DNA of 64,000 nucleotides from Candidatus Hydrogenedens sp. (GTDB lineage: Bacteria > Hydrogenedentota > Hydrogenedentia > Hydrogenedentales > Hydrogenedentaceae): assembly GCA_049968235.1 (NCBI GenBank), contig JBMFRC010000012.1, positions 1-64,000 of the forward strand, given 5' to 3'. Made by a program: the position numbers and the translations under genes. The notes below the pieces were generated by a model that saw only the letters and a program-made list of their open reading frames with translations, searched no databases and was not told the DNA's origin. How positions within the stretch are numbered: the first letter of the stretch is position 1; every line of letters starts with the position of its first letter. Below, piece after piece: positions 27,819 through 51,926 of the stretch.

Positions 27819-27892
27819 TATACATTTTTTATTGTAATATTTAGTTCGAAATAATTTAAAATAATAAATATAAATCATAAGGAGAACAAGAT

Positions 27893-37993: not shown

Positions 37994-38022
37994 TTGACAA
38001 GGAGTAAACAGTGTGCTATAAT
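37994..38022 (+). promoter_or_regulatory. Consensus sigma70 promoter, TTGACA - 17 nt - (TGc)TATAAT, upstream of rex
   Basis: TTGACA lies at 37994-37999 and TATAAT at 38017-38022. The TG of the extended -10 is at 38014-38015. Confidence 0.65.
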
Positions 38023-38084
38023 TTGTTCATAAATTCACAATTATACTTACAGGTAAGTATATAAATTTGTTTGTAAATTCACAA
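38023..38084 (+). promoter_or_regulatory. Two direct-repeat Rex-box-like operators (TTGTTCATAAATTCACAA and TTGTTTGTAAATTCACAA) flanking a perfect 7-2-7 palindrome TACTTACAGGTAAGTA
   Basis: The boxes are at 38023-38040 and 38067-38084. Each has a perfect TTCACAA right half-site and a degenerate left half-site, compared with the Rex consensus TTGTGAAnnnnTTCACAA. Box 1 abuts the -10 element. Confidence 0.55.
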
Positions 38085-38101
38085 TTAAAAGTATAAAGTA
38101 T

Positions 38102-38797
38102 ATGGTATCTGAGAAAACAGTAGAAAGATTAAGTTTATACCGCCGAATACTTCAACAATTGAGGGTCGAGAGTAAAGAAACTATAATGTCCCATGAACTT
38201 GCGAATATGTTACACATAAAGCCAGCACAGGTACGCAGGGATATTATGCAATTAGGTTATTCAGGAATACCTAATAGTGGTTATAGAATTCGACCTCTTT
38301 TAGAGAGTATTGCAAATTTTTTAGATTCCCCGTTGCCTCAGAGTGCTGTTTTAGTAGGTGTTGGACATTTAGGACTTGCGTTATTGGCTAACTTTGCAGG
38401 ACGATGGAGGCAATTAGCTATTCGTGCCTCTTTTGATAAAGACCCTGCAAAAGTAGGACAGACTTTTCATGGTTGTCGTTGTTATGCTATGTGTGATTTG
38501 CAAAAAGTAATTGCGGAGACAAAAAGTGTAGTAGGCATCCTGGCAATACCGGGTGAAAGTGCCCAATCTGTTTGTGACCTTCTTGTTCAGTCAGGTATTA
38601 GTGGCGTATTAAATTTTTCCCCATTGCGAATTAAAGTGCCTGATAATGTCTTTATAGAACATGTTGACCTTTCCGCTACGTTTGAAAAAGTTTCGTTCTT
38701 TGCAAGAAGAATGAAACATTATGCAGAAGAAGAAAAACGGAAAGTAGAAAATGAAATTACTGAGGGTGAATACGAAACATTAACAACCAATCAATAA
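38102..38797 (+). CDS. rex: Redox-sensing transcriptional repressor Rex
   Basis: The N-terminal winged helix reads TVERLSLYRRIL. The Rossmann fold reads AVLVGVGHLGLALL, and a C-terminal swap helix is present. Confidence 0.85.
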   Translation: MVSEKTVERLSLYRRILQQLRVESKETIMSHELANMLHIKPAQVRRDIMQLGYSGIPNSGYRIRPLLESIANFLDSPLPQSAVLVGVGHLGLALLANFAGRWRQLAIRASFDKDPAKVGQTFHGCRCYAMCDLQKVIAETKSVVGILAIPGESAQSVCDLLVQSGISGVLNFSPLRIKVPDNVFIEHVDLSATFEKVSFFARRMKHYAEEEKRKVENEITEGEYETLTTNQ

Positions 38798-38823
38798 ATA
38801 AAAAATTTTGTAGGAGATAGAAT

Positions 38824-39348
38824 ATGAATGAAGAATCAAAGCATGCGTGTATGGAAGAAGCAAGTGAAGAAGAACTGCTTGCTCGGCTTGATGAAGTAAT
38901 TGCAGAATATAAGGACAAGCCCGGTGCTCTTATTCCTGTTCTGCAGATTGCTCAGGCTATGTTTGGTTATCTACCCGAAAGTGCATTAAAAAAGATTAGT
39001 TTGGGACTGAACAAACCGTATAGTGAAGTTGCAGGTGTGGTAACATTTTACTCATTCTTTTCAACCCAGCCTCGTGGAAAACATATGATTCGTGTCTGTT
39101 TAGGAACTGCTTGTTATGTCCGTGGTGGCAAACAGGTTCTTTCTGCAATTAAGGATAAACTCCATATTGATGTTGGAGAGACCACGAAAGACCGTATGTT
39201 CTCTTTAGAGGTGGCTCGTTGTTTTGGTGCTTGTGGGCTTGCTCCTGCCATTATGGTGGATAACGATGTGCATCAACGGGTAAAACCTGCCCGAATTCAG
39301 GCTATTTTAGACCAGTATTTAGACAAAAACACAGAAAAAAATAAATAA
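38824..39348 (+). CDS. hndA: NuoE-like [2Fe-2S] subunit of an NAD(P)-linked [FeFe]-hydrogenase (HndA / HydC-like)
   Basis: It has a thioredoxin-like fold with 2Fe-2S Cys ligands (CLGTACYVRG...CFGACGLAP). It is ~174 aa, and its RBS is AGGAGA. Confidence 0.82.
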   Translation: MNEESKHACMEEASEEELLARLDEVIAEYKDKPGALIPVLQIAQAMFGYLPESALKKISLGLNKPYSEVAGVVTFYSFFSTQPRGKHMIRVCLGTACYVRGGKQVLSAIKDKLHIDVGETTKDRMFSLEVARCFGACGLAPAIMVDNDVHQRVKPARIQAILDQYLDKNTEKNK

Positions 39349-39370
39349 GAAATAAATAAGGAGAAAAGCC

Positions 39371-39742
39371 ATGTCAAATATTATTCATTCTCCAGAAGAC
39401 CTTAATGCTTTACGAGAAAAGGCAATTAAGGACATTGAGATTCGTAATTCACATAAAGATTTGGTGATTACTGTTCACATGGGAACATGTGGTATTGCTG
39501 CGGGTGCCAGAGAAGTATTAAAAAATATCATCTCTGAAATTTCTGCTATAGGTATAACCAATGTTACAGTCCGTCAATCTGGATGTGCAGGTCTCTGCGA
39601 CCGTGAACCCATGATTACGGTTACTCATAAATCCTCCGGTTCTGAATATCGTTATGGAAAATTAAACACGGAAAAGATACGAGAAATTGTGAAACAGCAT
39701 ATTGCAGAAGGTAAACCTGTGATGGAATATTTAATTTCCTGA
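39371..39742 (+). CDS. hndB: Small thioredoxin-like [2Fe-2S] ferredoxin subunit (HndB-like)
   Basis: The 2Fe-2S ligand motifs are HMGTCGIAAGA and SGCAGLCDREPM. It is 123 aa, and its RBS is AAGGAGA. Confidence 0.72.
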   Translation: MSNIIHSPEDLNALREKAIKDIEIRNSHKDLVITVHMGTCGIAAGAREVLKNIISEISAIGITNVTVRQSGCAGLCDREPMITVTHKSSGSEYRYGKLNTEKIREIVKQHIAEGKPVMEYLIS

Positions 39743-39825
39743 TGAAGAAATACAGGGTAAATTCGGATTCCCATAAAGTGGTTGAGATGAACATGTATAG
39801 CAAAATAAGAAAGAATGATATAGAA

Positions 39826-41271
39826 ATGAAAATGAACATATTACATCTATTTCTTATTTTATTTTTATGTTCATCCGCAACCTTTACTGAAATATCTGAT
39901 TGGGAAACCATCTCACTTTCGGATACAGGAGAAGCATTACAAAATCCCGGCATGGGATGGGTATTACATTTTTACGATAATGTTCCTGAAAATTATGGTT
40001 CTAAATTAGCCCCTTCAGATACTGTTGATGAATTCCCTGCCCTTTCAGTTATTTATTTGCGAATAGCATGGTCGTTTTTAGAACCTGAAGAAGGAAAGTA
40101 TAACTGGTCTATATTGGATACTCCTTCTCAACGATGGATTTCTAAAGGGAAACAAATTGCTTTGCGCATTACCTGTAGTGAAACTCCTATTCCATGGGCG
40201 ACACCAAAATGGGTTTATGAAGCAGGAGCCAAAGGTAATTTCTTCATTCCTACCCAGGGGATAAAAGAAAATGGGACACATTGGGAACCCGAATTTGATG
40301 ACCCTGTTTTCTTGGATAAGTTGGATAATTTTTTAGCAGTGTTAGCAAAGAGATATGATGAAAATCCGGAAATAGCCTTCATAGATATGGGTTCATTAGG
40401 AGTGTGGGGAGAAGGTCATGTATGGCATTCCACACAAAAACATATTTCGACGGAAACCATAAAAAAACACATTGATTTGCACATAAAGCACTTTAAAAAC
40501 ACAATAATTGCTCTAAATGATGACCTTATCACAAATGGGCAAAAATTGGATGTAATTCCCGAAGAGAAAAAAGAACTCCTCAATTATGCTATCAAAAATG
40601 GGTTAACACTTCGCGATGATAGTATTCTTGTTCAGGGTGGAGATAATGTATATTTTAGTGCAAGCCTTGCGGAATACTTCTGGCGAAATAGACCTATCAT
40701 TTTAGAATCTGAACATTATGGACCATCAAAGGCTGAAAGGCATTGGGGGGACGGAAGTAAATATTTACAGGCTGTAGAAGATTACCATGCAAGTTATACT
40801 TCTATTCATTGGTGGCCAAGGGAGTTTTTACAAGAAAACAAAGATTTGATAGATAAAATCAATCTTCGTTTGGGGTATCGTATTGTCCCTACCGAAGTTA
40901 AATGGCAAAAGACAGTAAAAATATCCGAGAAAAAATGGGATATATCCTACCGTTGGGCAAATAAAGGAGTGGCACCTTGTTATCGGGATGTATATCCCAT
41001 TATTACATGGAAAGATGAGAAAGGAGGAATTGTTGCTGTTTTTACAGATGAGACATTTAATCTCAAACAATTACCAATAGGGAAGCAGGATGAATTAAAA
41101 GAAATTGAGGTAAAAAAATCTTTTTTTATTCCTTTTTTATTGAAAGAAGGAAATTATACAGTATTCATTTCAGCGGGTTCTATTACGGGCACGCCTGAAA
41201 TTCAATTACCGTTAAACAACACAGACCATGAAAAAAGATATGTTATAGGTAAAGTTAATGTTGTTTTGTGA
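39826..41271 (+). CDS. Secreted clan GH-A TIM-barrel glycoside-hydrolase-like protein (GH42/GH35-like N-terminal signature). The tracked ORF begins at 39742; the start at 39826 gives a clean signal peptide.
   Basis: The signal peptide is MKMNILHLFLILFLCSSATF. NPGMGW is present. IAWSFLEPEEGKYNW resembles the GH42 signature AWSxxEPxEGxY. MGSLGVWGEGHVWHS is also present. Confidence 0.55.
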   Translation: MKMNILHLFLILFLCSSATFTEISDWETISLSDTGEALQNPGMGWVLHFYDNVPENYGSKLAPSDTVDEFPALSVIYLRIAWSFLEPEEGKYNWSILDTPSQRWISKGKQIALRITCSETPIPWATPKWVYEAGAKGNFFIPTQGIKENGTHWEPEFDDPVFLDKLDNFLAVLAKRYDENPEIAFIDMGSLGVWGEGHVWHSTQKHISTETIKKHIDLHIKHFKNTIIALNDDLITNGQKLDVIPEEKKELLNYAIKNGLTLRDDSILVQGGDNVYFSASLAEYFWRNRPIILESEHYGPSKAERHWGDGSKYLQAVEDYHASYTSIHWWPREFLQENKDLIDKINLRLGYRIVPTEVKWQKTVKISEKKWDISYRWANKGVAPCYRDVYPIITWKDEKGGIVAVFTDETFNLKQLPIGKQDELKEIEVKKSFFIPFLLKEGNYTVFISAGSITGTPEIQLPLNNTDHEKRYVIGKVNVVL

Positions 41272-41342
41272 AAAAAAATATAAAGATATAAATAAAAACT
41301 TCAGAAATGAAGCATACACAAGTTATGGAAAGGAGAAAAAAA

Positions 41343-44300
41343 ATGAGTCCATTTCGAAGTCATGTATTAATCTGTGCAGGTGCAGGATGCGTGGCATCAG
41401 GTTCGATGGAAGTAAGTTCCGCCTTTTCGGAGGCACTTGCCAAACATGGGCTAAATGAAGAAATTCAAGTAGTCCATACAGGATGTTTAGGACCCTGTGC
41501 TATTGGTCCCGTGGTCGTGATTTATCCAGATGCTATTTTTTATCAAGGTGTTAAAACAACAGATGTTGAAGATATTGTTGTTGAGCATCTGTTAAAAGGT
41601 CGGCCTGTTAGTCGCTTGAATTTCAAATCTACTACCACATCACAAATTATTCCTGCACTGCAGGAGATTGGTTTTTTCAAGCAACAGACAAAGATAGTTT
41701 TAAGGAACTGTGGTATTATAGACCCTACAAAAATTGAGGAGTATATTGCGAGAGATGGGTATCAGGCTTTAGCAAAAGTACTGACAAAAATGACTCCACA
41801 GCAGGTAGTAGAAGAAGTGAAAAAATCTGGACTTCGGGGAAGAGGTGGTGCAGGATTCCCAACAGGTATAAAGTGGGAGTTAACTCAAAAAGCCCACGGA
41901 GATAAGAAATATGTTCTTTGTAATGCTGATGAAGGTGACCCGGGCGCATTTATGGACAGAAGTGTTTTGGAAGGTGACCCCCATAGTGTTATTGAAGCTA
42001 TGATTATAGCAGGATATGCCATTGGTTCTGACCAGGGATATATTTATGTTCGAGCAGAATATCCTTTAGCGGTAGAGAGATTAAATATAGCGATAAAGCA
42101 AGCCAGAGAATATGGTTTGTTAGGTAAGAATATTATGGGAACGAATTTTAATTTCGACCTTGAAATACGAATGGGTTCAGGTGCTTTTGTGTGTGGAGAA
42201 GAAACCGCATTGATGCGTTCTATCGAAGGGAAACGCGGAGAACCCAGACCCCGTCCACCGTTCCCTGCATATAAAGGTTTATGGGAAAAACCCAGTTTAT
42301 TAAATAATGTAGAAACCTATGCAAACATCCCTGTAATTATATTAAAAGGTGCTGATTGGTTTGCTTCCATAGGAACAGGTAAAAGTAAAGGAACAAAAGT
42401 GTTTGCCTTAGCAGGTGCTGTAAACAACACAGGATTGGTCGAAATTCCGATTGGTACACCATTAGGTGAAATTATTTATGATATTGGCGGTGGAATTCCG
42501 CGAGGCAAACAATTTAAGGCAGCGCAAATTGGAGGTCCTTCCGGCGGTTGTATTCCAAAACAACATCTGAATGTGCCGGTAGATTACGAGTCATTACAGG
42601 AATTAGGAGCGATTATGGGTTCCGGTGGATTAATTGTTATGGATGAAGACACATGTATGGTCGATATGGCTCGTTTCTTCCTTGACTTTGTTCAGGATGA
42701 GTCATGTGGAAAATGTGTCCCATGCCGGGTCGGAACGAAAAGAATGTTGGAAATTGTGACAAGGATTTGTGAGGGTCGGGGAGAAGAAGGCGATATTGAA
42801 AAACTTATTGAATTAGGACAACAGATTAAAGATGCATCGTTATGTGGATTAGGGCAGACAGCTCCAAACCCTGTTCTTTCTGCAATACGGCACTTCCGTG
42901 ATGAATTTGAAATTCATATTCGTGAACATAAATGTCCGGCGGGTGTCTGTCCATCTCTTGTTCGTGCTCCTTGTATGAGTGCTTGCCCGGCAAATGTTTA
43001 CATTCCGGGTTTTGTCTCATTAATATCTGAAAAACGATATGCGGAAGCACTTCGTGTGCATCGTGACCAGAACCCCTTTGCATCTGTATGTGCCCGTGTG
43101 TGTTTCCATACTTGTGAGGACAAATGTAGAAGAGCTACTCTGGATGAAGCGGTATCCATACGCGGATTGAAGCGATTTATGGTAGAGCAAGAAGTTACAA
43201 TACAACTACCTGAAATTCGTGAAAATGAACAAAATCTTCGCAAAAAGGTGGCTATTATAGGAGCAGGTCCTGCAGGTCTAACCTGTGCTTATTTCCTTGC
43301 ACGATTAGGCTATCAACCCCGTGTTTTTGAATCTGCACCCAGGCCCGGCGGTATGTTAGTTCAAACAATTCCCGCTTATCGGTTACCCCGAGAAGAATTG
43401 GCTCGAGAAATTCGTATGATAGAAAGAATGGGCGTTGTCATAGAAACTGAAAAAGCCTTAGGTCGTGATTTTACATTACAAAGCCTTCGTGATGATGGAT
43501 ATGAGGCTATTTTTCTCGGAATAGGTGCTCCATCAGGTCAAAAATTGAGAATTCCAGGCGAAGATGCGGATGGCGTTGTCGAAGCCATAGACTTCCTTCG
43601 TGAATACAATCTCCGTGGTTCTGTTCCTGTAGGGAAAAATGTTGTTATTATAGGAGGTGGTAATGCAGCTATTGATGCGGCAAGAACTGCCATTCGTTTA
43701 GGAGCAAAAAAAGCAACGATTCTTTACCGCAGAACAAGAGAAGAGATGCCTGCGTATAAAGAAGAGATCGAAGAAGCAGTTAATGAAGGTGTTATTTTAA
43801 AAATGTTAGTAACTCCACTGGAGATTTTGACAGAAAACGGAAAAGTTGTTGGTGTAAAATGTCAACACATGTGGTTAGGAGAATATGACCGTTCCGGTAG
43901 AAGAAGACCTGAAGCCAAAAAGGGTGAAGAACCCTTTGTTGAAGAAGCAGACCAGGTTATTGCAGCAATAGGGCAAACTGTTGATTTAAAACGTTACCTG
44001 GATGGATTAAATGTTAAGTTAACACCTTCTGGTTTCTTGTGGGTAGACCAATTATATGGTCAGACCTCTATTGAATGGTTATTTGCAGGTGGTGATATTA
44101 GTTCAGGTCCTTCTTCCGTAGCAGAAGCAATCGGTGCTGGTGAAAGAGCTGCAGTTGGAATTGATAAGTATCTTACTGGAGAAGAACATGCTTTCTGGCG
44201 CGAACCCTATATGGTAGATACAGAATTTGACCCAGATTCCGACCCGGTAGATTTCCCAAGAGCAAAAATGAAACTTTTACCTGTTGAAAAGAGGGTACAC

Positions 44301-44414: not shown

Positions 44415-44431
44415 TAAAAGGAGAATAAGCC

Positions 44432-46204
44432 ATGCCAAAATTAACTATAGATGGAATTCCCGTAGAAGTTCCGGAAGGAACAACAATACTTCAAGCGGCA
44501 AAGCAAATAGGATTAAAAATACCGACACTTTGTTATCTTGAAGAAGTTCAAGCCATCGGTGCCTGTCGTGTTTGCGTTGTTGAAGTTGAAGGAGCACGAA
44601 CTTTGGTCGCTTCTTGTGTTGCTCCTGTTGCGGAAGGAATGAAAGTCCATACAAATTCAAAAAGAGCCCGTGAGGCACGAAAAACAGTTGTAGAATTGTT
44701 ACTATCCGACCATGATGGCGATTGCCAGATTTGTGTTCGAAATGAAGATTGTGAACTTCAGGAATTGGCACGAACACTTGGGATAAAGGAAATTCGCTAT
44801 CAAGGTGAGAAGAGAAAACGGATTGTGGATGAAAGCACTCCCGCTGTTGTTCGTGATACATCGAAATGTGTCTTATGTAGAAGATGTATAACGGTTTGCA
44901 ATGAGGTTCAGGGTGTTGGCGGACTGTTCCCACAAAATCGTGGCTTTGAAACGGTAATAGGTCCCGCATTTTGTAGTGATTTGGATGATGTCGTATGTGT
45001 TCAGTGTGGTCAATGTAGTGCGGTTTGTCCTGTGGGTGCTATTGTAGAAAGAGACCAGATTGCGGATGTCTTTTCTGCATTAGATGACCCGACAAAAACA
45101 GTCGTTGTCCAGACAGCCCCTGCAATTCGTGCCGCATTGGGAGAATGTTTTGGTTTACCACCCGGAACTTTAGTAACAGGGAAGATGGTTACCGCACTTC
45201 GTAGACTGGGTTTCCATGCCGTTTTTGATACTAACTTTGCCGCTGACCTTTGTATTATGGAAGAAGGTACAGAACTGCTAACTCGATTGAAGAAAAAACT
45301 GGTAGATGGGGAGAATATTGCTCTTCCTATGTTTACCAGTTGTTCTCCGGGGTGGATTAAGTTTTTAGAACATTTCTACCCGGATATGATTCCAAATGTA
45401 TCTACATGCAAATCCCCACAGCAAATGTTTGGTGCTATAGCAAAGACCTATTATTCCAAGAAAATTGGTAAGAAACCCGAAGATATTGTTGTTGTTTCTA
45501 TTATGCCCTGTACAGCGAAGAAATATGAACATCAGCGTCCCGAGATGAACAGTTCCGGTGTTCGTGATGTGGACTATGTGCTTACAACGCGTGAATTGGG
45601 TCGGATGATAAAACAGGCAGGCATTGATTTTGTAAATCTACCCGATGACAAGCAAGACTCACCATTAGGACTATCCTCTGGTGCTGCGGATATTTTTGCG
45701 AATACCGGGGGTGTTATGGAAGCGGCAATTCGAACTGTTTATGAAATAGTAACAGGACGCGAATTACCATTCGATGGACTTCATGTTGCTCCTATCGAAG
45801 GATTAGAAGGAATCAAGGAAGCCTCCTTGAAGATAGAAAAATGTGTGCCTGAATGGTCTTTCTTAGAAGGGGCTACCGTAAATGTTGCTGTGGCTCATGG
45901 ATTGGGTAATGCCAGAGCATTAATAGAGCGAGTTCGCTCAGGTGAAAAGGCGTATCACTTTATAGAAATTATGACCTGTCCCGGTGGATGTATTGGTGGA
46001 GGAGGACAACCTCGCTTTACAGATAATTCAGTTCGTCTTGCTCGTATTCAGGCCATATACAAAGAGGATGAAGGGAAACAACTTCGTAAGTCCCATGTAA
46101 ATCCTGACATACAAAAATTGTATAAGGAATTTTTAGGACATCCGAATAGTGAAGTTTCACATCATCTATTACATACGCATTACAATCCGAGAACAAAAGT
46201 ATAA
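44432..46204 (+). CDS. hndD: [FeFe]-hydrogenase catalytic subunit, M3 architecture (HndD/HydA-like), with non-canonical L1 motif TSCSPGW
   Basis: It has an N-terminal 2Fe-2S domain, a His-ligated 4Fe-4S (HDGDCQICVRNEDC) and two ferredoxin-like 4Fe-4S clusters. The H-cluster motifs are L2 MPCTAKKYE and L3 EIMTCPGGCIGG. The L1 motif reads FTSCSPGW. Confidence 0.88.
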   Translation: MPKLTIDGIPVEVPEGTTILQAAKQIGLKIPTLCYLEEVQAIGACRVCVVEVEGARTLVASCVAPVAEGMKVHTNSKRAREARKTVVELLLSDHDGDCQICVRNEDCELQELARTLGIKEIRYQGEKRKRIVDESTPAVVRDTSKCVLCRRCITVCNEVQGVGGLFPQNRGFETVIGPAFCSDLDDVVCVQCGQCSAVCPVGAIVERDQIADVFSALDDPTKTVVVQTAPAIRAALGECFGLPPGTLVTGKMVTALRRLGFHAVFDTNFAADLCIMEEGTELLTRLKKKLVDGENIALPMFTSCSPGWIKFLEHFYPDMIPNVSTCKSPQQMFGAIAKTYYSKKIGKKPEDIVVVSIMPCTAKKYEHQRPEMNSSGVRDVDYVLTTRELGRMIKQAGIDFVNLPDDKQDSPLGLSSGAADIFANTGGVMEAAIRTVYEIVTGRELPFDGLHVAPIEGLEGIKEASLKIEKCVPEWSFLEGATVNVAVAHGLGNARALIERVRSGEKAYHFIEIMTCPGGCIGGGGQPRFTDNSVRLARIQAIYKEDEGKQLRKSHVNPDIQKLYKEFLGHPNSEVSHHLLHTHYNPRTKV

Positions 46205-46223
46205 GATAAGATTTAATAATAAA

Positions 46224-46247
46224 GGGGAGTGTGAGTGAGCACTCCCC
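46224..46247 (+). terminator. Stable hairpin after hndD: 8-bp GC-rich stem GGGGAGTG / CACTCCCC with an 8-nt loop and no U-tract
   Basis: It lies 20 nt downstream of the hndD stop. It may be a partial terminator or an RNA-stability element. Confidence 0.4.
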
Positions 46248-46329
46248 ATACAATCCTATGAAGTTGTATAATAGGAATATAGGTAGGAGTAAGTAGGTTT
46301 ATGAGTGTCTAATATTTAGGAAAGAAAAA

Positions 46330-46725
46330 ATGGAAAATAAAATTATAATGGTCGTTGATGATGATATTGATGTTCAGGATTTCTGTAAAATTGTATTAGG
46401 AAGAGAGGATTATCAGGTTATAACATTTTCCAACTCAGAGAGTGCACTCGAATATTTATCGTCGAACACTCCCTCTGTAATTATTACCGATTTAATGATG
46501 GGTGGAATTGATGAGGGTGTCCAATTTGTTAATAAGATTAGAGGATTCGATAATGAGAAGGCAAAAATTCCAATTATAATGATTACAGGCATAAATTCAA
46601 AATTAGGATATGACATCACTCCCCGTTCCGATGAAGAAAAAAAACAAATGAAAATCGATGAATTTATATCAAAACCTTTAAATCCAAAACAGTTAATAAC
46701 AGCACTAAAAAAAGTAATCAAATAG
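46330..46725 (+). CDS. Stand-alone response-regulator receiver (REC) domain protein
   Basis: The acidic pocket reads VVDDD. The phospho-acceptor Asp lies in VIITDLMM, and a conserved Lys is present. It is 131 aa with no output domain. Confidence 0.8.
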   Translation: MENKIIMVVDDDIDVQDFCKIVLGREDYQVITFSNSESALEYLSSNTPSVIITDLMMGGIDEGVQFVNKIRGFDNEKAKIPIIMITGINSKLGYDITPRSDEEKKQMKIDEFISKPLNPKQLITALKKVIK

Positions 46726-46777
46726 AAATTTGTTTCGTATAGATACTGTTTAATTTATAAATATAAGGAAATGAGTT

Positions 46778-48175
46778 ATGAGTTCAAATGTAGAAACTGT
46801 TCCTATTAATGAGGAATTTATTTTTGATACTTTAAAAAATAGTGTCAAGAAAGATGCGGTTTACATCAAAGAAATTCTTGCAAAAGCCCTTGAATTAAAG
46901 GGATTAGATGCGACAGAAGTAGCCACGCTTGCAACAATAAGTGACCCTGACCTGTTAAAAGAACTTTTCGATACAGCCCGAAAAGTCAAAGAGGAGATTT
47001 ACGGTAAACGATTAGTTCTTTTTGCCCCACTTTATGTATCAAATCTTTGCAAGAATGAATGCTTATATTGTGCTTTCCGTAAAAGTAACAAGATGGTTCG
47101 TAGAAAAGCATTGACACAAGAAGAAGTCCGTAGAGAGGTTGAAACATTGGTTGACCAGGGGCATAAACGCATTCTATTAGTGGCAGGCGAGTCCTATCCT
47201 TCCGAAGGATTTGATTATGTTATTCATTGTATCGAAACAATATATAGTGTAAAGCGGGATAGGGGAGAGATACGACGCGTAAATGTGAATATAGCACCCT
47301 TATCGTTAGAGGAATTTAAAAGGCTGAAATCAGCAAAAATTGGGACATATCAGTTATTTCAAGAAACATACCACAGAGAAACATACCAAAAAGTCCATGT
47401 AGGTGGACTTAAAAAGGATTTTGACTGGAGAATTACCGCTATGGACCGTGCTATGAAAGCTGGCATTGATGATGTGGGTGTTGGCGTTCTTTTTGGCTTA
47501 TTTGATTGGAGATTTGAAATACTTGCTTTAATGCAACATATTAAACATTTAGAAGATACCTTCGGTGTAGGATGTCACACGATAAGTGTACCTCGCCTTG
47601 AACCTGCTATAGGTTCAGACCTGGCTTCACATCCCCCTTATCCGGTATCAGACCTTGATTTCAGAAAAATTGTAGCTATACTAAGACTTGCTGTGCCCTA
47701 TACAGGAATAATAATGTCCACTCGTGAAACTCCCAATATACGAAGAGAAACCTTTGCACTGGGTGTATCACAAATATCAGCAGGCAGTAGAACGAATCCA
47801 GGTGGGTATACAGGCAGTGAAGAAGAGGATATGAGCCAATTCTCATTAGGTGACCATCGCAGTCTGGATGAGGTTATTCGTGATGTTACAAAATTAGGTT
47901 ATATCCCATCCTTCTGCACGGCTTGTTATCGTTTAGGCAGAACAGGTGCTGACTTTATGGACCTTGCCAAGCCGGGTCTTATCAAGAACCATTGTGAAGT
48001 TAATGCTTTAAGCACTTTTGCTGAATATCTGGAAGATTATGCATCCTCCGAAACAAAACAAATAGGTTGGGCAAAGATTGAGGAAATTTTAAATACAATG
48101 CCTGAAGTTCGGAAAAAACGTACCGAAGGGATGTTGGCTCGTGTAAAAGCCGGTGAACGGGATGTATATGTGTAA
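46778..48175 (+). CDS. hydG: [FeFe]-hydrogenase maturase HydG (radical SAM tyrosine lyase, ThiH-like)
   Basis: The radical SAM motif is CKNECLYC. The ~465 aa length and a C-terminal auxiliary-cluster Cys motif (FCTACYRLGRTG) fit HydG. It sits in the hyd cluster. Confidence 0.85.
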   Translation: MSSNVETVPINEEFIFDTLKNSVKKDAVYIKEILAKALELKGLDATEVATLATISDPDLLKELFDTARKVKEEIYGKRLVLFAPLYVSNLCKNECLYCAFRKSNKMVRRKALTQEEVRREVETLVDQGHKRILLVAGESYPSEGFDYVIHCIETIYSVKRDRGEIRRVNVNIAPLSLEEFKRLKSAKIGTYQLFQETYHRETYQKVHVGGLKKDFDWRITAMDRAMKAGIDDVGVGVLFGLFDWRFEILALMQHIKHLEDTFGVGCHTISVPRLEPAIGSDLASHPPYPVSDLDFRKIVAILRLAVPYTGIIMSTRETPNIRRETFALGVSQISAGSRTNPGGYTGSEEEDMSQFSLGDHRSLDEVIRDVTKLGYIPSFCTACYRLGRTGADFMDLAKPGLIKNHCEVNALSTFAEYLEDYASSETKQIGWAKIEEILNTMPEVRKKRTEGMLARVKAGERDVYV

Positions 48176-48180
48176 ATCTT

Positions 48181-49602
48181 ATGTCAGACTACCGAATTGA
48201 AACCGACTTATTGGGTGAAAAAAAGATACCTGCGGATGTCTATTGGGGTATACATACTGCTCGTGCAGTAGAAAATTTTCCTGTTTCCCGACTCTCGGTT
48301 CATTCAGAATTAATCCAATCTTATGGAATTGTAAAACTTGCATGTGCAAAAATAAATTATTCGTTAGGATACTTATTACATCCTCCTGATAAATCATCTG
48401 CCATATTTAACGCTTGCGAAGAAGTAGCAATTGGTAAATGGAATGACCATATTATCGTGGATGCTCTACAGGGTGGAGCAGGAACCAGCACAAATATGAA
48501 TATTAATGAGGTTATTGCCAACCGTGCCCTAGAAATATTGGGCTTACCACGGGCAAAATATGACATTATTTCCCCATTAGATGATATAAATCTTCACCAA
48601 TCGACTAACGATACTTATCCTACCGCCCTGAAACTTGCTACGATAAGGATGTTAAGAAAATTAGAATCAGAAATTATTCTTCTTTTAGAGACATTTCAAA
48701 CACTTGAAAAACAATTTTCGGACATAGTAAAAATTGGAAGGACAGAACTTCAAGATGCAACGCCTATTACATTAGGTAGGGAGATGGGTGCTTATGCAGA
48801 TGCCCTAGTAAGAGACCGTTGGCGTATCTATAAGTGTGAAGAAAGATTGCGAGTAGTTAATTTAGGAGGCACCGCAATAGGAACAGGTTTAGGAGCACCA
48901 AGGGATTATATTTTCCGTGTTGTAGATAATCTGCGAGAGTTATCAAATATCGGTTTTTCGCGAGCAGAAAATTTAGTAGATGCAACTCAAAATCTCGATG
49001 TATTTGGGGAAGTATCAGGTATCATTCGTTCCTATGCCATAACGCTTAATAAAATAGCCAATGATTTGAGACTAATGTCATCCGGACCCGAAGCAGGTCT
49101 CCGTGAAATTCAACTTCCACAATTACAAGCGGGTTCATCTATTATGCCAGGGAAAGTGAACCCTGTTTTGCCTGAAGCGGTATGCCAGGTTGCAATGCTA
49201 ACATTTGGATTCGACCAGATTATCACATATGGCTGTTCTTCCGGAAACCTTGAACTAAATCCTTTTGTCCCTTTGATTGCTCATTGTTTGTTAAATATGA
49301 TTGAAATGTTAACAAATGTAACAAAATTATTTACGGAAAAATGTATTAAAGGAATTTCGCCGAACCGAGAGGTTTGTGTTTCCTATGTGAATAATTCTAC
49401 AGCAACTCTAACCGCACTTATACAGAAGATAGGATATGAAAAAGCATGTATGATTGCTAAAAAAACAAGTAATTTGAAAAAGAGTATTCGAGAAATTGTA
49501 TTGGAAGAAGGAGTTTTGACTCCTGAAGAATTTGATACTCTTTTAAGTCCTGAGTCCGTTTGTAAATTAGGATTTGTTGACACCAGTAATGAGATAGATT
49601 AG
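48181..49602 (+). CDS. aspA: Aspartate ammonia-lyase-like protein (fumarase/aspartase superfamily)
   Basis: The N-terminus IETDLLGEKKIPADVYWGIHTARAVENF is aspartase-like. The superfamily signature GSSIMPGKVNP is present. Confidence 0.78.
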   Translation: MSDYRIETDLLGEKKIPADVYWGIHTARAVENFPVSRLSVHSELIQSYGIVKLACAKINYSLGYLLHPPDKSSAIFNACEEVAIGKWNDHIIVDALQGGAGTSTNMNINEVIANRALEILGLPRAKYDIISPLDDINLHQSTNDTYPTALKLATIRMLRKLESEIILLLETFQTLEKQFSDIVKIGRTELQDATPITLGREMGAYADALVRDRWRIYKCEERLRVVNLGGTAIGTGLGAPRDYIFRVVDNLRELSNIGFSRAENLVDATQNLDVFGEVSGIIRSYAITLNKIANDLRLMSSGPEAGLREIQLPQLQAGSSIMPGKVNPVLPEAVCQVAMLTFGFDQIITYGCSSGNLELNPFVPLIAHCLLNMIEMLTNVTKLFTEKCIKGISPNREVCVSYVNNSTATLTALIQKIGYEKACMIAKKTSNLKKSIREIVLEEGVLTPEEFDTLLSPESVCKLGFVDTSNEID

Positions 49603-49611
49603 GAAGGAAAT

Positions 49612-50865
49612 ATGCTTAGAGCATCACCAAAATCATTTCGACTGCATATTGGTTTTTTTGGTAGAAGGAATGTTGGAAAATCCAGTTTACTTAATGCAAT
49701 TACACGACAAAATGTCTCAATTGTTTCTGAATCCGCAGGAACCACAACAGACCCCGTGGAAAAACCTATGGAACTACTACCTTTAGGTCCTGTTCTATTC
49801 ATTGATACTGCGGGCATTGATGATATAGGTGCTTTAGGAGAATTACGGATACAAAAAACAAGACAAATTTTTGACCGAACCGATGTTGCGGTTGTTGTTA
49901 CAGAAGCCGGTATATGGGGAGAATTTGAGGAAGGCTTGTGTAATGAGTTTAAGTCAAGAAATGTTCCTATCGTAGTTGTGTTTAACAAAGTGGACCTGCA
50001 TGAACCTGATGAAACATTGTGTAATAGGTTGAAAAATGAGAAAATTCTATATGTAAAGACTATTGCATCAAAGCAGGATGGTATTAGTGAACTCAAAAAT
50101 GCACTTATTTCTTCAGCCCCCGATGATTTTATAAATAGTCCAACGATTTTAGGAGATTTGGTAGCTCCTGGTGAATTGGCTGTGCTTGTCGTGCCTATAG
50201 ATAAAGAAGCACCTAAAGGAAGACTTATTATGCCTCAGGTTCAATCCATCCGTGATTTGTTAGATAACGATGCTATGTGTGTTGTCGTAAAAGAAAGAGA
50301 ACTCCGGCGAATTTTAGAACAATTAAAAATTCTTCCAAAGATTGTTGTTACTGATTCCCAGGCATTCTTAAAAGTCGTCGCAGATACTCCTTCCAATGTA
50401 TGGGTTACAAGTTTTTCAATATTATTTTCAAGATTCCGCGGAGATTTAATTACACAGGTGGAAGGAACACTTGCTATCGAATCATTGAAACCCGGAGATA
50501 AAATACTTATTGCAGAATCATGCTCGCATCACCCTATTGCCGATGATATAGGAAGGGTTAAAATACCAAGATGGTTAATGCAATATATCGGTGGAAAATT
50601 AGAATTTGATACTGTTCAGGGAAATGATTTTTTTTCAGATTTAACAAAATATAAAATGGTTATACACTGTGGAGCATGCACACTCAATCGCCGTGCTATG
50701 TTAAATCGTATTATGCATTGCAAAAAACAAGGGATACCAATAAGTAATTACGGGTTAACTATAGCCTATTCTTTAGGTATCCTCGAAAGGGCATTAGAAC
50801 CATTCCCATCCGCATTGGAAATATATAAACAGAAAACAACAAAAAAGTTGCAAAACATTAAATAA
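49612..50865 (+). CDS. hydF: [FeFe]-hydrogenase maturation GTPase/scaffold HydF
   Basis: The P-loop is GRRNVGKSSLLN with NKVD alongside. The C-terminal Fe-S motif is CSHHP...HCGACT (CxHx~50HCxxC). Confidence 0.85.
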   Translation: MLRASPKSFRLHIGFFGRRNVGKSSLLNAITRQNVSIVSESAGTTTDPVEKPMELLPLGPVLFIDTAGIDDIGALGELRIQKTRQIFDRTDVAVVVTEAGIWGEFEEGLCNEFKSRNVPIVVVFNKVDLHEPDETLCNRLKNEKILYVKTIASKQDGISELKNALISSAPDDFINSPTILGDLVAPGELAVLVVPIDKEAPKGRLIMPQVQSIRDLLDNDAMCVVVKERELRRILEQLKILPKIVVTDSQAFLKVVADTPSNVWVTSFSILFSRFRGDLITQVEGTLAIESLKPGDKILIAESCSHHPIADDIGRVKIPRWLMQYIGGKLEFDTVQGNDFFSDLTKYKMVIHCGACTLNRRAMLNRIMHCKKQGIPISNYGLTIAYSLGILERALEPFPSALEIYKQKTTKKLQNIK

Positions 50866-50873
50866 AATAAAAC

Positions 50874-51926
50874 ATGGATAAAAAAAATATTATTAATTGG
50901 CTTCGTGAAAAAAACGAAGATAAATTAAACGAACTATGGGAATTGGCGGATTCTATCCGCAGTAAATATGTAGGAGAAGAGGTGCATCTTCGAGGTTTGA
51001 TAGAAATATCAAACTATTGCAAAAAAAACTGTCTATACTGTGGAATACGAATTTCTAATAGAAAATTAACCCGATATAGAATGGAAGACAGCGAGATTTT
51101 GGAATGTGTGGAATTTGCCAAAAGAAATGGCTATGGAACAATAGTCCTTCAATCCGGCGAAGACCCCGATTTTACAAAAGAAAAAATCGCCGAATTAATT
51201 AGAAAAATAAAAGAAAATGCAAATGTGGCTATTACATTAAGTTTAGGAGAGCAGGAAAAACACACATTAGAATTATGGAAATCTGCCGGAGCCAATCGTT
51301 ATCTTCTTCGTTTTGAAACCTCAGATGAAATCCTATTTAAAAGAATCCATTCGTCAGAACAAGCAAAAAGTTTAGAGAATAGAATTAAACAACTAAAAAT
51401 ACTTAAACAATTAGGCTACGAAGCAGGAAGTGGGATAATGATTGGAATACCCTATCAAACTTATGAAAGCATCGCTAATGATATCCTACTTTTCAAACAA
51501 TTAGACCTTGATATGATAGGAATAGGACCATACATTCCTCATCCCGATACACCTTTAGGACAGGAATATCTTAATAAATATAAAAAAGATGATGAAAAAT
51601 TTGTCCCAAACACAGAATTAATGACATATAAAGTCCTTGCATTAACCCGAATTATATGTCCAACCGTAAACATTCCTGCCACCACTGCCCTTGCAACTGT
51701 GAATACACGAGAAGGTCGCATTTTAGCCCTGAAGAGGGGAGCCAATGTTATCATGCCGAATCTCACTCCACCAAAATATAAAAAATTGTATGAAATTTAT
51801 CCAGGTAAATCGTCTGCTGATGAACCTCCAGAAATTATTCATCAAAGTATAATGAAGATTATAGAAAAGGCAGGAAGAAAAGTAGGAACAGGGATGGGAA
51901 ATCGCAAAAAAATCATAGATATTTAA
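50874..51926 (+). CDS. hydE: [FeFe]-hydrogenase maturase HydE (radical SAM, BioB-like)
   Basis: The radical SAM motif is CKKNCLYC. It is ~350 aa, and the TIM-barrel radical SAM core resembles BioB/HydE. Confidence 0.85.
   Translation: MDKKNIINWLREKNEDKLNELWELADSIRSKYVGEEVHLRGLIEISNYCKKNCLYCGIRISNRKLTRYRMEDSEILECVEFAKRNGYGTIVLQSGEDPDFTKEKIAELIRKIKENANVAITLSLGEQEKHTLELWKSAGANRYLLRFETSDEILFKRIHSSEQAKSLENRIKQLKILKQLGYEAGSGIMIGIPYQTYESIANDILLFKQLDLDMIGIGPYIPHPDTPLGQEYLNKYKKDDEKFVPNTELMTYKVLALTRIICPTVNIPATTALATVNTREGRILALKRGANVIMPNLTPPKYKKLYEIYPGKSSADEPPEIIHQSIMKIIEKAGRKVGTGMGNRKKIIDI

What the first reader, a model, noticed from the sequence alone, without database searches (positions are those of the whole stretch)
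37994..51926. Rex-associated Hnd-type [FeFe]-hydrogenase locus co-clustered with a full HydG/HydF/HydE maturase set
The gene order is rex, hndA (NuoE-like), hndB (small 2Fe-2S), [GH-like gene], hndC (NuoF-like::GltD-like), hndD (M3 [FeFe] catalytic subunit), a REC-only regulator, hydG, an aspA-like gene, hydF and hydE. Structural, regulatory and maturation genes are rarely all contiguous like this. Several members are atypical and are listed as separate findings. The locus forms a coherent module of about 14 kb.
Basis: partly seen in the sequence, partly recalled or inferred. Interest (0 to 1): 0.6.

Follow-up and report, generated by a model that had tools for sequence, protein, structure and literature searches.

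The report
Rex-controlled [FeFe]-hydrogenase locus with its maturases
This is a real, compact gene cluster from a Candidatus Hydrogenedens bacterium that carries an already-described but biochemically untested hydrogen-making enzyme, its redox sensor and all the helpers that build its metal centre, so it is an ordinary kind of locus that would make a convenient package for testing that enzyme.

Summary
All eleven gene calls hold at the stated coordinates. HydA, HydG, HydF, HydE and Rex score above curated HMM cut-offs, and every diagnostic cofactor motif is present. The window comes from Candidatus Hydrogenedens. The hydrogenase is not a canonical Hnd/HydABC. Its NuoF-like subunit lacks the C-terminal 2x[4Fe-4S] ferredoxin-docking domain. 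A GltD/NfnB-like FAD-NADP(H) module sits exactly there instead. This is the "sub-type I BfuABCD" enzyme that Zheng & Huang described from genomes in 2024; it is uncharacterised.

A perfect sigma-70 promoter with two conserved Rex boxes precedes rex. A conserved stable hairpin follows hydA. The locus is therefore probably two units: rex-hndAB-GH-hndC-hydA, and REC-hydG-aspA-hydF-hydE.

- **aspA beside hydF:** a known association (it supplies ammonia for the H-cluster bridge).
- **GH-like gene:** a secreted DUF4832 protein, inserted only in this clade.
- **REC-only gene:** has clear orthologues directly after hydA in Phycisphaerae and Thermoleophilia, where an H2-sensor histidine kinase follows it.
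- **Co-clustering with maturases:** rare, 3 of 61 species-level loci, but conserved in five Hydrogenedens lineages.

Verdict: a new member of a known kind, of moderate-to-low interest. It is useful as a self-contained cassette.

The parts
37994..38022 (+). Sigma-70 promoter, TTGACA-17 nt-TATAAT with TG upstream of the -10 box
   Evidence: The only 12/12 match in the region. The equivalent promoter is present in relatives (alignment A2).
38023..38040 (+). Rex box 1, TTGTTCATAAATTCACAA, directly abutting the -10 box
   Evidence: Exact match to TTGT-N7-TTCACAA, and 2 mismatches to the consensus TTGTGAANNNNTTCACAA. Conserved in L001, L039, L087 and L089.
38043..38060 (+). Perfect 8-2-8 palindrome ATACTTAC-AG-GTAAGTAT between the two Rex boxes; function unknown
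   Evidence: The aligned block is nearly invariant in five genomes: only the central dinucleotide and, in L089, the last base of the 3' arm differ. Unique in the window. Not a significant RNA hairpin (z -0.9).
38067..38084 (+). Rex box 2, TTGTTTGTAAATTCACAA, 35 bp upstream of the rex start
   Evidence: Its position is conserved at -27 to -35 in relatives.
38102..38797 (+). rex, the NADH/NAD+-sensing repressor (231 aa)
   Evidence: NF003995 scores 192 bits against a cut-off of 126; Put_DNA-bind_N and CoA_binding domains; GxGxxG at residue 86.
38824..39348 (+). hndA / bfuC / hydC, the NuoE-like [2Fe-2S] subunit (174 aa)
   Evidence: PF01257 scores 174 bits. Ligand motifs C92x4C97 and C133x3C137.
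39371..39742 (+). hndB / bfuD / hydD, a small thioredoxin-like subunit (123 aa) with only 3 Cys
   Evidence: PF01257 scores 24.4 bits against a cut-off of 24.8. The sequence has three Cys. The best PDB matches are the N-terminal thioredoxin-like domains of NfnB and StnB.
39742..41271 (+). GH-like DUF4832 protein with an N-terminal signal-like hydrophobic segment (the ORF starts at 39742; the likely start is 39826). A passenger gene.
   Evidence: DUF4832 plus weak GH42. Sequence. The 100% identical NCBI protein has 481 aa. Found inside the operon only in the Hydrogenedens clade.
41307..44414 (+). hndC / bfuB, a NuoF-like subunit fused to a GltD/NfnB-like FAD-NADP(H) module (the ORF starts at 41307; the likely start is 41343)
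   Evidence: Pfam and NCBIfam domains. Residues 14-553 match the A. woodii and A. mobile HydB subunits. Residues 553-1023 match residues 101-567 of C. saccharolyticus NfnABC subunit A and StnC. The junction comes right after the HIRxxKCPAGxC hinge. Motifs.
44432..46204 (+). hndD / hydA / bfuA, the M3-type [FeFe]-hydrogenase catalytic subunit (590 aa)
   Evidence: NF040763 scores 907 bits against a cut-off of 765. H-cluster motifs TSCSPGW, MPCTAK and EIMTCPGGC. Best structural relative is A. woodii HydA1, 650 bits.
46224..46247 (+). Stable stem-loop GGGGAGTG-N8-CACTCCCC just after the hydA stop; a likely transcript end, attenuator or mRNA stabiliser
   Evidence: Free energy -22 kcal/mol, z -5.0. 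An equivalent hairpin is present in L087, L089 and L001 (z -4.8 to -7.2). No U-tract follows it.
46330..46725 (+). Single-domain response regulator (REC only, 131 aa) that is linked to hydA
   Evidence: PF00072 scores 69 bits. D10/D11, D54 and K115 are intact. Orthologues with the same insertion lie directly after hydA in Phycisphaerae and Thermoleophilia.
46778..48175 (+). hydG, a radical-SAM maturase
   Evidence: TIGR03955 scores 540 bits against a cut-off of 312. CX3CX2C and C-terminal CX2CX22C motifs.
48181..49602 (+). aspA-like aspartate ammonia-lyase (473 aa)
   Evidence: NF008909 scores 629 bits against a cut-off of 510, but TIGR00839 scores 516 against 681. SS loop GSSIMPGKVN. It travels with the maturases in L009 and L035.
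49612..50865 (+). hydF, the GTPase scaffold maturase
   Evidence: TIGR03918 scores 557 bits against a cut-off of 326; HydF_dimer and HydF_tetramer domains. P-loop and CxH...HCxxC motifs.
50874..51926 (+). hydE, a radical-SAM maturase
   Evidence: TIGR03956 scores 331 bits against a cut-off of 255. CX3CX2C motif.

Best explanation
**What it is.** The locus is the hydrogen-metabolism island of a Candidatus Hydrogenedens genome. It consists of two adjacent units.

**Unit 1 (37994-46247).** This is a Rex-autoregulated operon, rex-hndA-hndB-(GH passenger)-hndC-hydA. It encodes a cytoplasmic multimeric [FeFe]-hydrogenase of the 'sub-type I BfuABCD' kind. Rex sits on two operators that overlap the promoter and early transcript. 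When NADH/NAD+ rises, Rex should leave and the enzyme should be made (inferred from the established behaviour of Rex). The enzyme would therefore act as a redox valve that turns excess NAD(P)H into H2.

**The altered subunit.** The NuoF-like subunit keeps the following: the FMN/NADH site, the N3-like [4Fe-4S] cluster, the N-terminal [2Fe-2S] cluster and the hinge motif. The C-terminal ferredoxin-docking 2x[4Fe-4S] domain has been replaced by the NADP(H)-FAD-2x[4Fe-4S] module that Stn/NfnABC transhydrogenases use as their NADPH port.

**Most likely mechanism (inferred, about 0.45).** The low-potential arm ends in bound FAD/NADP(H) rather than free ferredoxin. The enzyme would then confurcate NADH plus NADPH to 2 H2, and could run the reverse reaction.

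**Unit 2 (46330-51926).** REC-hydG-aspA-hydF-hydE builds the H-cluster. HydG makes the Fe(CO)2CN synthon, HydE processes it, HydF scaffolds it, and AspA supplies the NH4+ for the azadithiolate bridge. The REC protein is a phosphorylatable single-domain regulator. It probably receives input from an H2-sensing hydrogenase-kinase encoded elsewhere in the genome (inferred).
For: **Identity.** All structural and maturase genes pass specific curated HMM cut-offs, and all cofactor motifs are present. Taxon: a GH protein 100% identical to a 'Candidatus Hydrogenedens sp.' protein, and HndC relatives named Hydrogenedens or Hydrogenedentota.

**Published class.** Zheng & Huang 2024 describe sub-type I BfuB with B3/B4 replaced by DPD_II plus an FAD/NAD(P) domain.

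**Domain swap.**
- HndC residues 14-553 align to residues 4-542 of the 599-residue A. woodii HydB.
- Residues 553-1023 align to residues 101-567 of 9bov_A (407 bits) and to StnC.
- The hinge HIRxxKCPAGxC is shared with A. woodii HydB (HIRDKKCPAGVC); only the two x positions differ.
- The NADP-type GGGNAA motif and YRR are present, as in the NADPH-specific StnC and NfnA.

**Rex.**
- A perfect promoter abuts box 1.
- The two boxes are conserved in position in five genomes.
- Rex-like boxes lie upstream of rex or hndA in about 22 of 86 loci, against a background of 0.078 per kb.
- EMSAs show that Rex represses [FeFe]-hydrogenase genes, hydG and itself in C. bescii.

**Two units.**
- A conserved hairpin follows hydA in four genomes, including L001, where a different gene comes next.
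- The REC-maturase block is absent in L001/L002. REC alone is absent in L089. aspA alone is absent in L090.

**aspA role.**

**REC.** Orthologues follow hydA in three phyla. In all four Thermoleophilia loci a Fer4-Fe_hyd_lg_C-HisKA-HATPase_c protein follows the REC gene directly.
Against: - No enzyme of this architecture has been assayed, so the substrates and the direction of the reaction are inferred.
- The two [4Fe-4S] clusters of the GltD module could still dock ferredoxin, as they do in NfnSL.
- The post-hydA hairpin has no U-tract, and no convincing -35 element precedes REC, so read-through as a single transcript is possible.
- No Rex box lies upstream of REC or hydG.
- No histidine kinase is linked to the REC gene in this window. 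The only kinase is a Cache-type protein 31 kb away.
- The aspA-like protein falls below the aspA equivalog cut-off.
- Hydrogenedentota genomes often carry several hydrogenases, so the maturases need not serve this one alone.
Confidence: 0.75

Rival explanations
1. It is a canonical Hnd/HydABC-type hydrogenase that bifurcates between NADH and ferredoxin. The GltD-like module merely adds a third, NADPH-linked port, giving a hybrid of hydrogenase and Nfn-like transhydrogenase that still uses free ferredoxin.
For: The gene order hndA-B-C-D matches, and HydA is about 60% like the bifurcating A. woodii HydA1. The flavobicluster elements are all retained: FMN, B1, C1, the hinge and the N-terminal [2Fe-2S] cluster. 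In NfnSL the homologous 2x[4Fe-4S] pair is the ferredoxin exit (established knowledge; homology). Zheng & Huang raise the possibility of two bifurcation centres.
Against: The B3/B4 domain is missing and replaced. Cryo-EM work on Bfu enzymes assigns ferredoxin binding to that domain, and Schut et al. treat it as invariably conserved in bifurcating members. Hydrogenases whose B subunit lacks B3/B4 are non-bifurcating and ferredoxin-independent.
Confidence: 0.25
2. It is a simple non-bifurcating NAD(P)H-dependent hydrogenase, like S. wolfei Hyd1ABC. NADH at the FMN site and NADPH at the FAD site act as independent, alternative donors with no energetic coupling.
For: Loss of B3/B4 correlates with non-bifurcating behaviour. 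The enzyme has two separate nucleotide sites.
Against: The hinge site, C1 and the N-terminal [2Fe-2S] cluster are all kept. The precise splice at the hinge places the GltD clusters exactly on the former low-potential path. The fusion is strongly conserved at 65-76% identity across a dozen or more phyla, which suggests a tuned electron path.
Confidence: 0.2
3. The whole 14-kb stretch is one operon, transcribed from the Rex promoter through hydE. Rex would then control structural and maturase genes together.
For: All genes are on the same strand and the largest gap is 125 bp. The hairpin lacks a U-tract. No Rex box or strong promoter precedes REC. In C. bescii Rex also controls hydG.
Against: A stable hairpin is conserved after hydA even where the downstream gene differs. 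The REC-maturase block is gained and lost independently of the structural operon.
Confidence: 0.3

Closest known systems
Sub-type I BfuABC(D) group A3 [FeFe]-hydrogenase of Hydrogenedentota (Zheng & Huang, mSystems 2024, PMC11406978)
   Same: Same phylum. Same C-D-B-A gene order. Same BfuB architecture, with the B3/B4 domain replaced by DPD_II (2x[4Fe-4S]) plus an FAD/NAD(P) domain. HydA is of the M3a type with Ser at position 5 of the P1 motif.
   Different: That paper mentions none of the following: Rex, the operators, the hydA-linked REC gene, the GH insertion, or adjacent hydG-aspA-hydF-hydE genes (0 occurrences). It reads the FAD as a possible second bifurcation centre, whereas here the module is read as a replacement for the ferredoxin port.
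A. woodii HydABCD, T. maritima HydABC and S. fructosivorans HndABCD, the electron-bifurcating [FeFe]-hydrogenases
   Same: The subunit set is NuoE-like, small thioredoxin-like, NuoF-like and M3 HydA. HydA scores 650 bits to A. woodii HydA1, with the same TSCSPGW motif. HndC residues 16-552 score 835 bits to A. woodii HydB, and the hinge motif is shared.
   Different: The C-terminal 2x[4Fe-4S] ferredoxin-like domain of the B subunit is absent. A module of about 480 residues carrying FAD and NADP(H) sites is present in its place.
Stn (Sporomusa-type Nfn) and NfnABC, the Nfn-Bfu transhydrogenases (PDB 8oh5, 9bov, 9n5u)
   Same: The GltD-like module matches at 363-407 bits, about 55-60% identical by eye in the printed alignments (not computed), including the GxGxxA and YRR NADPH signature and the trailing RCLRC motif. 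HndB resembles the Cys-poor N-terminal domain of StnB and NfnB.
   Different: In Stn and Nfn-Bfu the module is inserted in the NuoG-like A subunit, there is no H-cluster, and the B subunit keeps B3/B4 for ferredoxin. Here the module sits on the B subunit and the A subunit is a true hydrogenase.
S. wolfei Hyd1ABC and S. aciditrophicus HydAB, the non-bifurcating NADH-dependent [FeFe]-hydrogenases
   Same: The B subunit lacks the B3/B4 clusters, and the enzymes are expected not to depend on free ferredoxin.
   Different: Those enzymes simply lack the domain. Here it is replaced by a second nucleotide-binding flavin module.
Rex regulon of Caldicellulosiruptor bescii and other anaerobes
   Same: An 18-bp palindromic operator of the TTGTGAA-N4-TTCACAA type lies upstream of [FeFe]-hydrogenase genes, and rex is autoregulated.
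   Different: Here rex is the first gene of the hydrogenase operon itself. There are two tandem boxes, with an extra conserved palindrome between them.
hyd maturase operons with aspA next to hydF (Pagnier et al., JBC 2024, PMC11736057)
   Same: aspA lies immediately upstream of hydF within hydG-aspA-hydF-hydE.
   Different: The protein scores below the aspA equivalog cut-off. A sister lineage, L090, has lost the gene.

Membership tests
[FeFe]-hydrogenase, group A catalytic subunit | H-cluster motifs P1 (TSCxPxW), P2 (MPCxxK) and P3 (ExMxCxxGCxxG) | tested here: met
   TSCSPGW at 302, MPCTAK at 358 and EIMTCPGGCIGG at 512. The Ser variant of P1 also occurs in the active A. woodii HydA1.
[FeFe]-hydrogenase, group A catalytic subunit | Scores above the curated family HMM cut-off; M3 accessory-cluster architecture | tested here: met
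   NF040763 scores 907 bits against 765, and TIGR02512 scores 533 against 406. Domains are Fer2_4, NADH-G_4Fe-4S_3, 2x CxxCxxCxxxC, Fe_hyd_lg_C and Fe_hyd_SSU.
Hnd / HydABC / Bfu electron-bifurcating hydrogenase | NuoE-like C subunit with a [2Fe-2S] cluster (C1) | tested here: met
   PF01257 scores 174 bits; ligand motifs Cx4C and Cx3C.
Hnd / HydABC / Bfu electron-bifurcating hydrogenase | B subunit with an FMN/NADH site, the B1 [4Fe-4S] cluster, the N-terminal [2Fe-2S] cluster and the hinge (B2/Zn) ligands | tested here: met
   GRGGAGF at 178, CGKCVPC at 467, C23x4C28 and C60x3C64, and HIREHKCPAGVC at 537.
Hnd / HydABC / Bfu electron-bifurcating hydrogenase | B subunit with the C-terminal 2x[4Fe-4S] ferredoxin-like domain (B3/B4), the ferredoxin port | tested here: not met
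   Alignment to HydB chains stops at residues 541-542 of 597-599. The sequence beyond that point aligns to GltD-like modules instead.
Hnd / HydABC / Bfu electron-bifurcating hydrogenase | Coupled reduction of NAD+ and ferredoxin by H2 (bifurcation) | not testable with these tools
   This needs the purified enzyme.
Sub-type I BfuABCD (Zheng & Huang 2024) | BfuB with DPD_II (Fer4_20) plus an FAD/NAD(P) domain in place of B3/B4; gene order C-D-B-A; Hydrogenedentota and allied phyla | tested here: met
   Fer4_20 at 547-629 and Pyr_redox_2 at 646-945. Gene order. Taxon. Paper text.
Stn / Nfn-Bfu transhydrogenase | GltD-like NADPH-FAD module inserted in the NuoG-like A subunit, with no H-cluster | tested here: not met
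   The module is on the NuoF-like subunit, and the A subunit carries a complete H-cluster domain.
Rex-regulated operon | Rex protein above the family cut-off, with a winged-helix domain and a GxGxxG Rossmann fold | tested here: met
   NF003995 scores 192 bits against 126. Domains. GVGHLG at 86.
Rex-regulated operon | Operator of the TTGTGAA-N4-TTCACAA type in the promoter region, conserved in relatives | tested here: met
   Two boxes at 38023 and 38067. They are the only exact TTGT-N7-TTCACAA matches in 64 kb, and they are conserved in five genomes.
Rex-regulated operon | NADH-sensitive binding of Rex to the operator | not testable with these tools
   This needs an EMSA or footprinting.
HydG / HydF / HydE H-cluster maturases | Equivalog-level HMM scores above trusted cut-offs, plus the signature cluster motifs | tested here: met
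   TIGR03955 scores 540 against 312, TIGR03918 scores 557 against 326, and TIGR03956 scores 331 against 255. Motifs: HydG CX3CX2C and CX2CX22C; HydF P-loop, CxH and HCxxC; HydE CX3CX2C.
hyd-associated aspartate ammonia-lyase | Member of the fumarase/aspartase superfamily with an SS loop, encoded next to hydF | tested here: met
   Lyase_1 and FumaraseC_C domains; NF008909 scores 629 against 510; GSSIMPGKVN; the gene is adjacent to hydF. It travels with the maturases in L009 and L035.
hyd-associated aspartate ammonia-lyase | Aspartate-specific activity (aspA equivalog) | tested here: inconclusive
   TIGR00839 scores 516 bits, below its cut-off of 681.
Response regulator (single-domain, CheY-like) | Receiver domain with an acidic pocket, a phospho-acceptor Asp and a conserved Lys, and no output domain | tested here: met
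   PF00072 scores 69 bits and covers residues 6-126 of 131. D10/D11, D54 in the TDLMM motif and K115-P are present.

The most novel reading that the evidence does not exclude
This widespread hydrogenase class, found in a dozen or more phyla, may be a ferredoxin-independent [FeFe]-hydrogenase in which the ferredoxin arm of a Bfu enzyme has been replaced by a tethered NADP(H)-flavin module. It would then confurcate NADH plus NADPH into H2. By my own Nernst estimate, this raises the permissible H2 pressure from about 3 Pa to about 150 Pa, using the E' values listed in PMC9304861. Its expression or activity may also be tied to H2 sensing through a dedicated single-domain response regulator that has co-migrated with hydA across phyla.
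Probability: 0.35. Interest if true: 0.7.

Novelty: new member of a known kind. Interest (0 to 1): 0.35.

Why it matters
The enzyme class is abundant in uncultured anaerobes: Hydrogenedentota, Planctomycetota, Verrucomicrobiota, Actinomycetota, Spirochaetota and others. It has never been purified, and its 2024 describers flagged it as possibly using a new coupling mechanism.

This locus carries everything needed to make the holoenzyme in one 14-kb stretch: four structural genes, HydG/E/F and the ammonia-supplying lyase. That makes it a practical cassette for heterologous expression.

Showing whether NADPH replaces ferredoxin would refine how H2 thresholds and NAD(P)H balance are modelled in anaerobic digesters and sediments. 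The conserved Rex boxes, the extra palindrome and the hydA-linked REC gene give concrete handles on how such hydrogenases are regulated outside the Firmicutes.

Tried and rejected
1. **Ser in the P1 motif.** I considered the TSCSPGW variant (Ser in place of the proton-relay Cys) as a sign of a sensory or inactive HydA. Rejected: the active bifurcating A. woodii HydA1 has the same motif.
2. **Recent horizontal transfer.** Third-position GC is uniform at 0.25-0.30 across the locus and in leuC. The higher overall GC of hndC and hydA reflects protein conservation.
3. **Rex boxes ahead of REC or hydG.** None found with up to 3 mismatches.
4. **The 8-2-8 palindrome as an RNA hairpin or leader.** It is not significantly stable (z -0.9).
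5. **Rfam.** No family reached the gathering threshold anywhere in the window, and only chance-level hits fell in the hydE-leuC spacer.
6. **The 470-bp extra spacer as a repeat or mobile element.** No second copy exists in the window or in any locus, and it holds no ORF longer than 54 aa.
7. **A functional link between the GH-like gene and hydrogenases.** The gene lies inside the operon only in the Hydrogenedens clade. The family is otherwise a common secreted DUF4832 protein of several phyla. No PDB relative scores better than E = 0.01.
8. **A cognate kinase for REC in the window.** There is only an unlinked Cache-HAMP kinase 31 kb away.
9. **Literature on an assayed NuoF::GltD hydrogenase.** None was found in the searchable library.
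10. **Searching REC in the large protein database.** It returned only close relatives because of the word index. Orthologues in other phyla came from the locus comparison instead.

Full report
**Observation.**
Intergenic distances run from -1 to 125 bp. The stated start, 37994, is the first base of the only perfect sigma-70 promoter in the region, TTGACA-17-TATAAT with TG ahead of the -10 box. The stated end is the hydE stop.

- HydA reaches 907 bits on NF040763 (cut-off 765) and 533 bits on TIGR02512.
- HydG reaches 540 bits on TIGR03955 (cut-off 312).
- HydF reaches 557 bits on TIGR03918 (cut-off 326).
- HydE reaches 331 bits on TIGR03956 (cut-off 255).
- Rex reaches 192 bits on NF003995 (cut-off 126).

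Sequence motifs agree.
- HydA: H-cluster motifs TSCSPGW, MPCTAK and EIMTCPGGC.
- HydG: CX3CX2C and CX2CX22C.
- HydF: P-loop, CxH and HCxxC.
- HydE: CX3CX2C.
- HndA: NuoE-type Cx4C and Cx3C.
- AspA-like protein: SS loop.
- Rex: GxGxxG.

**Source and surroundings.**
The GH-like protein is 100% identical to an NCBI protein from a 'Candidatus Hydrogenedens sp.' MAG. The closest named HndC relatives are also Hydrogenedens or Hydrogenedentota. The rest of the window is ordinary chromosome: infB, truB, ribF, a MacAB-type efflux system, aconitase, met and cys genes, leuCD, GH38 and hom. Third-position GC is even across the locus and its flanks, so nothing points to recent transfer.

**What the hydrogenase is.**
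HydA is an M3-type catalytic subunit, closest to the bifurcating A. woodii HydA1 (650 bits). That enzyme shares the Ser-containing P1 motif, so the Ser is not an anomaly.

HndA is a NuoE-like [2Fe-2S] protein.

HndB is a small thioredoxin-like protein with three rather than four Cys. It most resembles the Cys-poor N-terminal domains of StnB and NfnB, so whether it binds a cluster is uncertain.

The key deviation lies in HndC.
- Residues 14-553 match A. mobile and A. woodii HydB, but only up to residues 541-542 of 597-599.
- Residues 553-1023 match residues 101-567 of the A subunit of C. saccharolyticus NfnABC (407 bits) and of StnC (366 bits).
- The splice falls directly after the hinge motif HIRxxKCPAGxC, which A. 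woodii HydB shares; only the two x positions differ.
- The appended module carries an FAD-type GAGPAG motif, an NADP-type GGGNAA motif and YRR, as in the NADPH-oxidising StnC.

The ferredoxin-like 2x[4Fe-4S] domain (B3/B4) has therefore been swapped for an NADP(H)-FAD-2x[4Fe-4S] module. Zheng & Huang (2024) catalogued this architecture in Hydrogenedentota as 'sub-type I BfuABC(D)' and flagged it as possibly mechanistically new. No biochemical work exists. My further literature searches found none either.

The fusion is widespread. A scan of species-representative genomes gave 61 loci with the intact junction across a dozen or more phyla, including the cultured Pelotomaculum terephthalicicum. 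About a third of them, mostly at 50-55% identity, have no hydA beside them. The fused subunit therefore also serves other complexes.

**Regulation.**
Two Rex boxes lie at 38023-38040 and 38067-38084. They are the only exact TTGT-N7-TTCACAA matches in 64 kb. The first starts one base after the -10 hexamer. Both boxes keep their positions relative to rex in L001, L039, L087 and L089.

Rex-like boxes (up to 3 mismatches) also precede rex or hndA in about 22 of 86 fetched loci, against a background of 0.078 per kb. Rex repression of [FeFe]-hydrogenase genes, of hydG and of rex itself has been shown by EMSA in C. bescii. The inference is that the operon is derepressed when NADH/NAD+ rises. That fits an enzyme whose job is to vent reducing power as H2.

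Between the two boxes lies a perfect palindrome, ATACTTAC-NN-GTAAGTAT. Its arms are nearly invariant in all five genomes; L089 has one substitution in the last base. It is unique in the window and does not behave as an RNA hairpin. It remains unexplained; a second dimeric regulator is the simplest guess.

**One unit or two.**
A stable stem-loop sits 20 bp after the hydA stop (-22 kcal/mol, z -5.0). It has counterparts in L087, L089 and L001 (z -4.8 to -7.2), even though L001 has a different downstream gene.

The downstream block behaves as a separate module within the clade.
- L087/L088 and L092 carry REC-hydG-aspA-hydF-hydE, as the window does.
- L089 lacks REC.
- L090 lacks aspA.
- L001/L002 lack the whole block.

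I therefore favour two adjacent units, with possible read-through. The hairpin has no U-tract, and I found no convincing promoter or Rex box before REC, so a single transcript is not excluded.

**Maturase block.**
The aspA-like gene between hydG and hydF is expected rather than odd. Pagnier et al. (2024) showed that AspA can supply the ammonium for the azadithiolate bridgehead nitrogen, and that aspA is typically right next to hydF. In my comparison it also travels with the maturases in a TA06 locus and an Armatimonadota locus (L009 and L035). It passes the aspartate ammonia-lyase subfamily model but not the stricter equivalog.

**REC gene.**
The 131-aa protein is a complete, phosphorylatable receiver domain with no output domain. 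It has clear orthologues directly downstream of hydA in Phycisphaerae (L005, L032, L063) and Thermoleophilia (L019, L021, L022, L028). These are 131-135 aa long. They carry the same insertion of about 12 residues before the conserved Lys, plus the VITDLMM and DAxFxKP signatures.

In all four Thermoleophilia loci the next gene encodes Fer4 + Fe_hyd_lg_C + HisKA + HATPase_c, which is a sensory hydrogenase fused to a histidine kinase. A REC-kinase hybrid follows it. This suggests, but does not prove, that the REC protein receives an H2-dependent phosphoryl signal. No partner kinase is linked to it in this window.

**GH-like gene.**
This gene encodes a DUF4832 / weak-GH42 protein with a hydrophobic, signal-like N-terminus. 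Its family is common in Hydrogenedentota, Armatimonadota and Planctomycetota. It sits inside the hydrogenase operon only in the Hydrogenedens clade, and is absent from the 79%-identical relative L003 and from all other phyla. I read it as a passenger insertion that has come under Rex control.

**Rarity of the arrangement.**
- Among the 61 species-level loci with the fused subunit, three have two or more maturase genes within 10 kb (L009, L035, L054).
- Among the 23 loci with at least 8 kb on both sides, one does.

**Mechanism.**
- Shown: the domain composition, the motifs, the splice point, and the conservation of the operators.
- From established knowledge: how Rex responds to NADH, what HydG/E/F and AspA do, that B3/B4-less HydB enzymes do not use ferredoxin, and that the GltD-like module is the NADPH port of Stn and NfnABC.
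- Inferred: the low-potential arm now ends at FAD/NADP(H), so that NADH plus NADPH are confurcated to H2.

With the E' values listed by Schut et al. (NADH -280 mV, NADPH -380 mV, H2 -414 mV), my own Nernst estimate gives a ceiling of about 3 Pa of H2 for NADH alone. For the NADH/NADPH pair it gives about 150 Pa. The rivals are continued ferredoxin use, or two independent uncoupled donor sites. Only enzyme assays can separate them.

**Verdict.**
The locus is real, coherent and well conserved. Each of its main features already has a published precedent: sub-type I BfuABCD, Rex control of hydrogenases, and aspA with hydF. It is a new member of a known kind.

Three modest additions come from this work.
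- The exact splice point of the domain swap.
- The conserved tandem Rex boxes with an unexplained palindrome between them.
- A hydA-linked single-domain response regulator shared by three phyla.

Noticed in passing
window 38043-38060: A perfect palindrome, ATACTTAC-AG-GTAAGTAT, lies between the two Rex boxes. Its arms are nearly invariant in five Hydrogenedens-clade genomes, while the promoter around it drifts. It is unique in the window and not a significant RNA hairpin. It may be the site of a second regulator.
   Followed up: partly
window 51930-52400: About 470 bp of non-coding DNA lies between hydE and leuC. It is missing from the otherwise syntenic relatives L087, L089 and L092, whose spacers are about 95-170 bp. 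It has no ORF longer than 54 aa, no Rfam match and no second copy. It contains several GC-rich hairpins.
   Followed up: partly
window 13068-14945: An orphan sensor histidine kinase (sCache-HAMP-HisKA-HATPase_c) has no adjacent response regulator. It lies 31 kb from the REC-only gene. No evidence links the two.
   Followed up: no
L019 5852-7417 and 15438-18722 (also L021, L022, L028): Thermoleophilia sub-type I hydrogenase loci are flanked by several regulatory genes: an HATPase::HydS-like protein and a PHP protein upstream, then REC, a sensory-hydrogenase::histidine-kinase fusion, and a REC-kinase hybrid downstream. A second NuoE/NuoF/HydA cluster follows.
   Followed up: partly
L090 4835-8602: A sister Hydrogenedens lineage (REC 52% identical) has the same locus, but hydG is followed directly by hydF with no aspA gene. 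L089 has the maturases but lacks REC.
   Followed up: partly
L038, L042, L045, L060, L061 (10001-13100 in each): Fused NuoF::GltD genes at about 50-55% identity have hndA and hndB neighbours but no hydA within 10 kb. The fused subunit therefore also serves complexes that are not hydrogenases and remain unidentified.
   Followed up: no
window 35621-37843 (- strand): A 740-aa GDSL-like lipase/acylhydrolase gene is transcribed divergently from the rex promoter. It keeps this position in every close relative (L001, L039, L087, L089, L092).
   Followed up: no
window 27312-30715: Two adjacent genes encode a small dockerin/EF-hand protein and a 940-aa protein built almost entirely of EF-hand repeats. 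A similar EF-hand giant lies upstream of the hydrogenase locus in L001 and L089.
   Followed up: no
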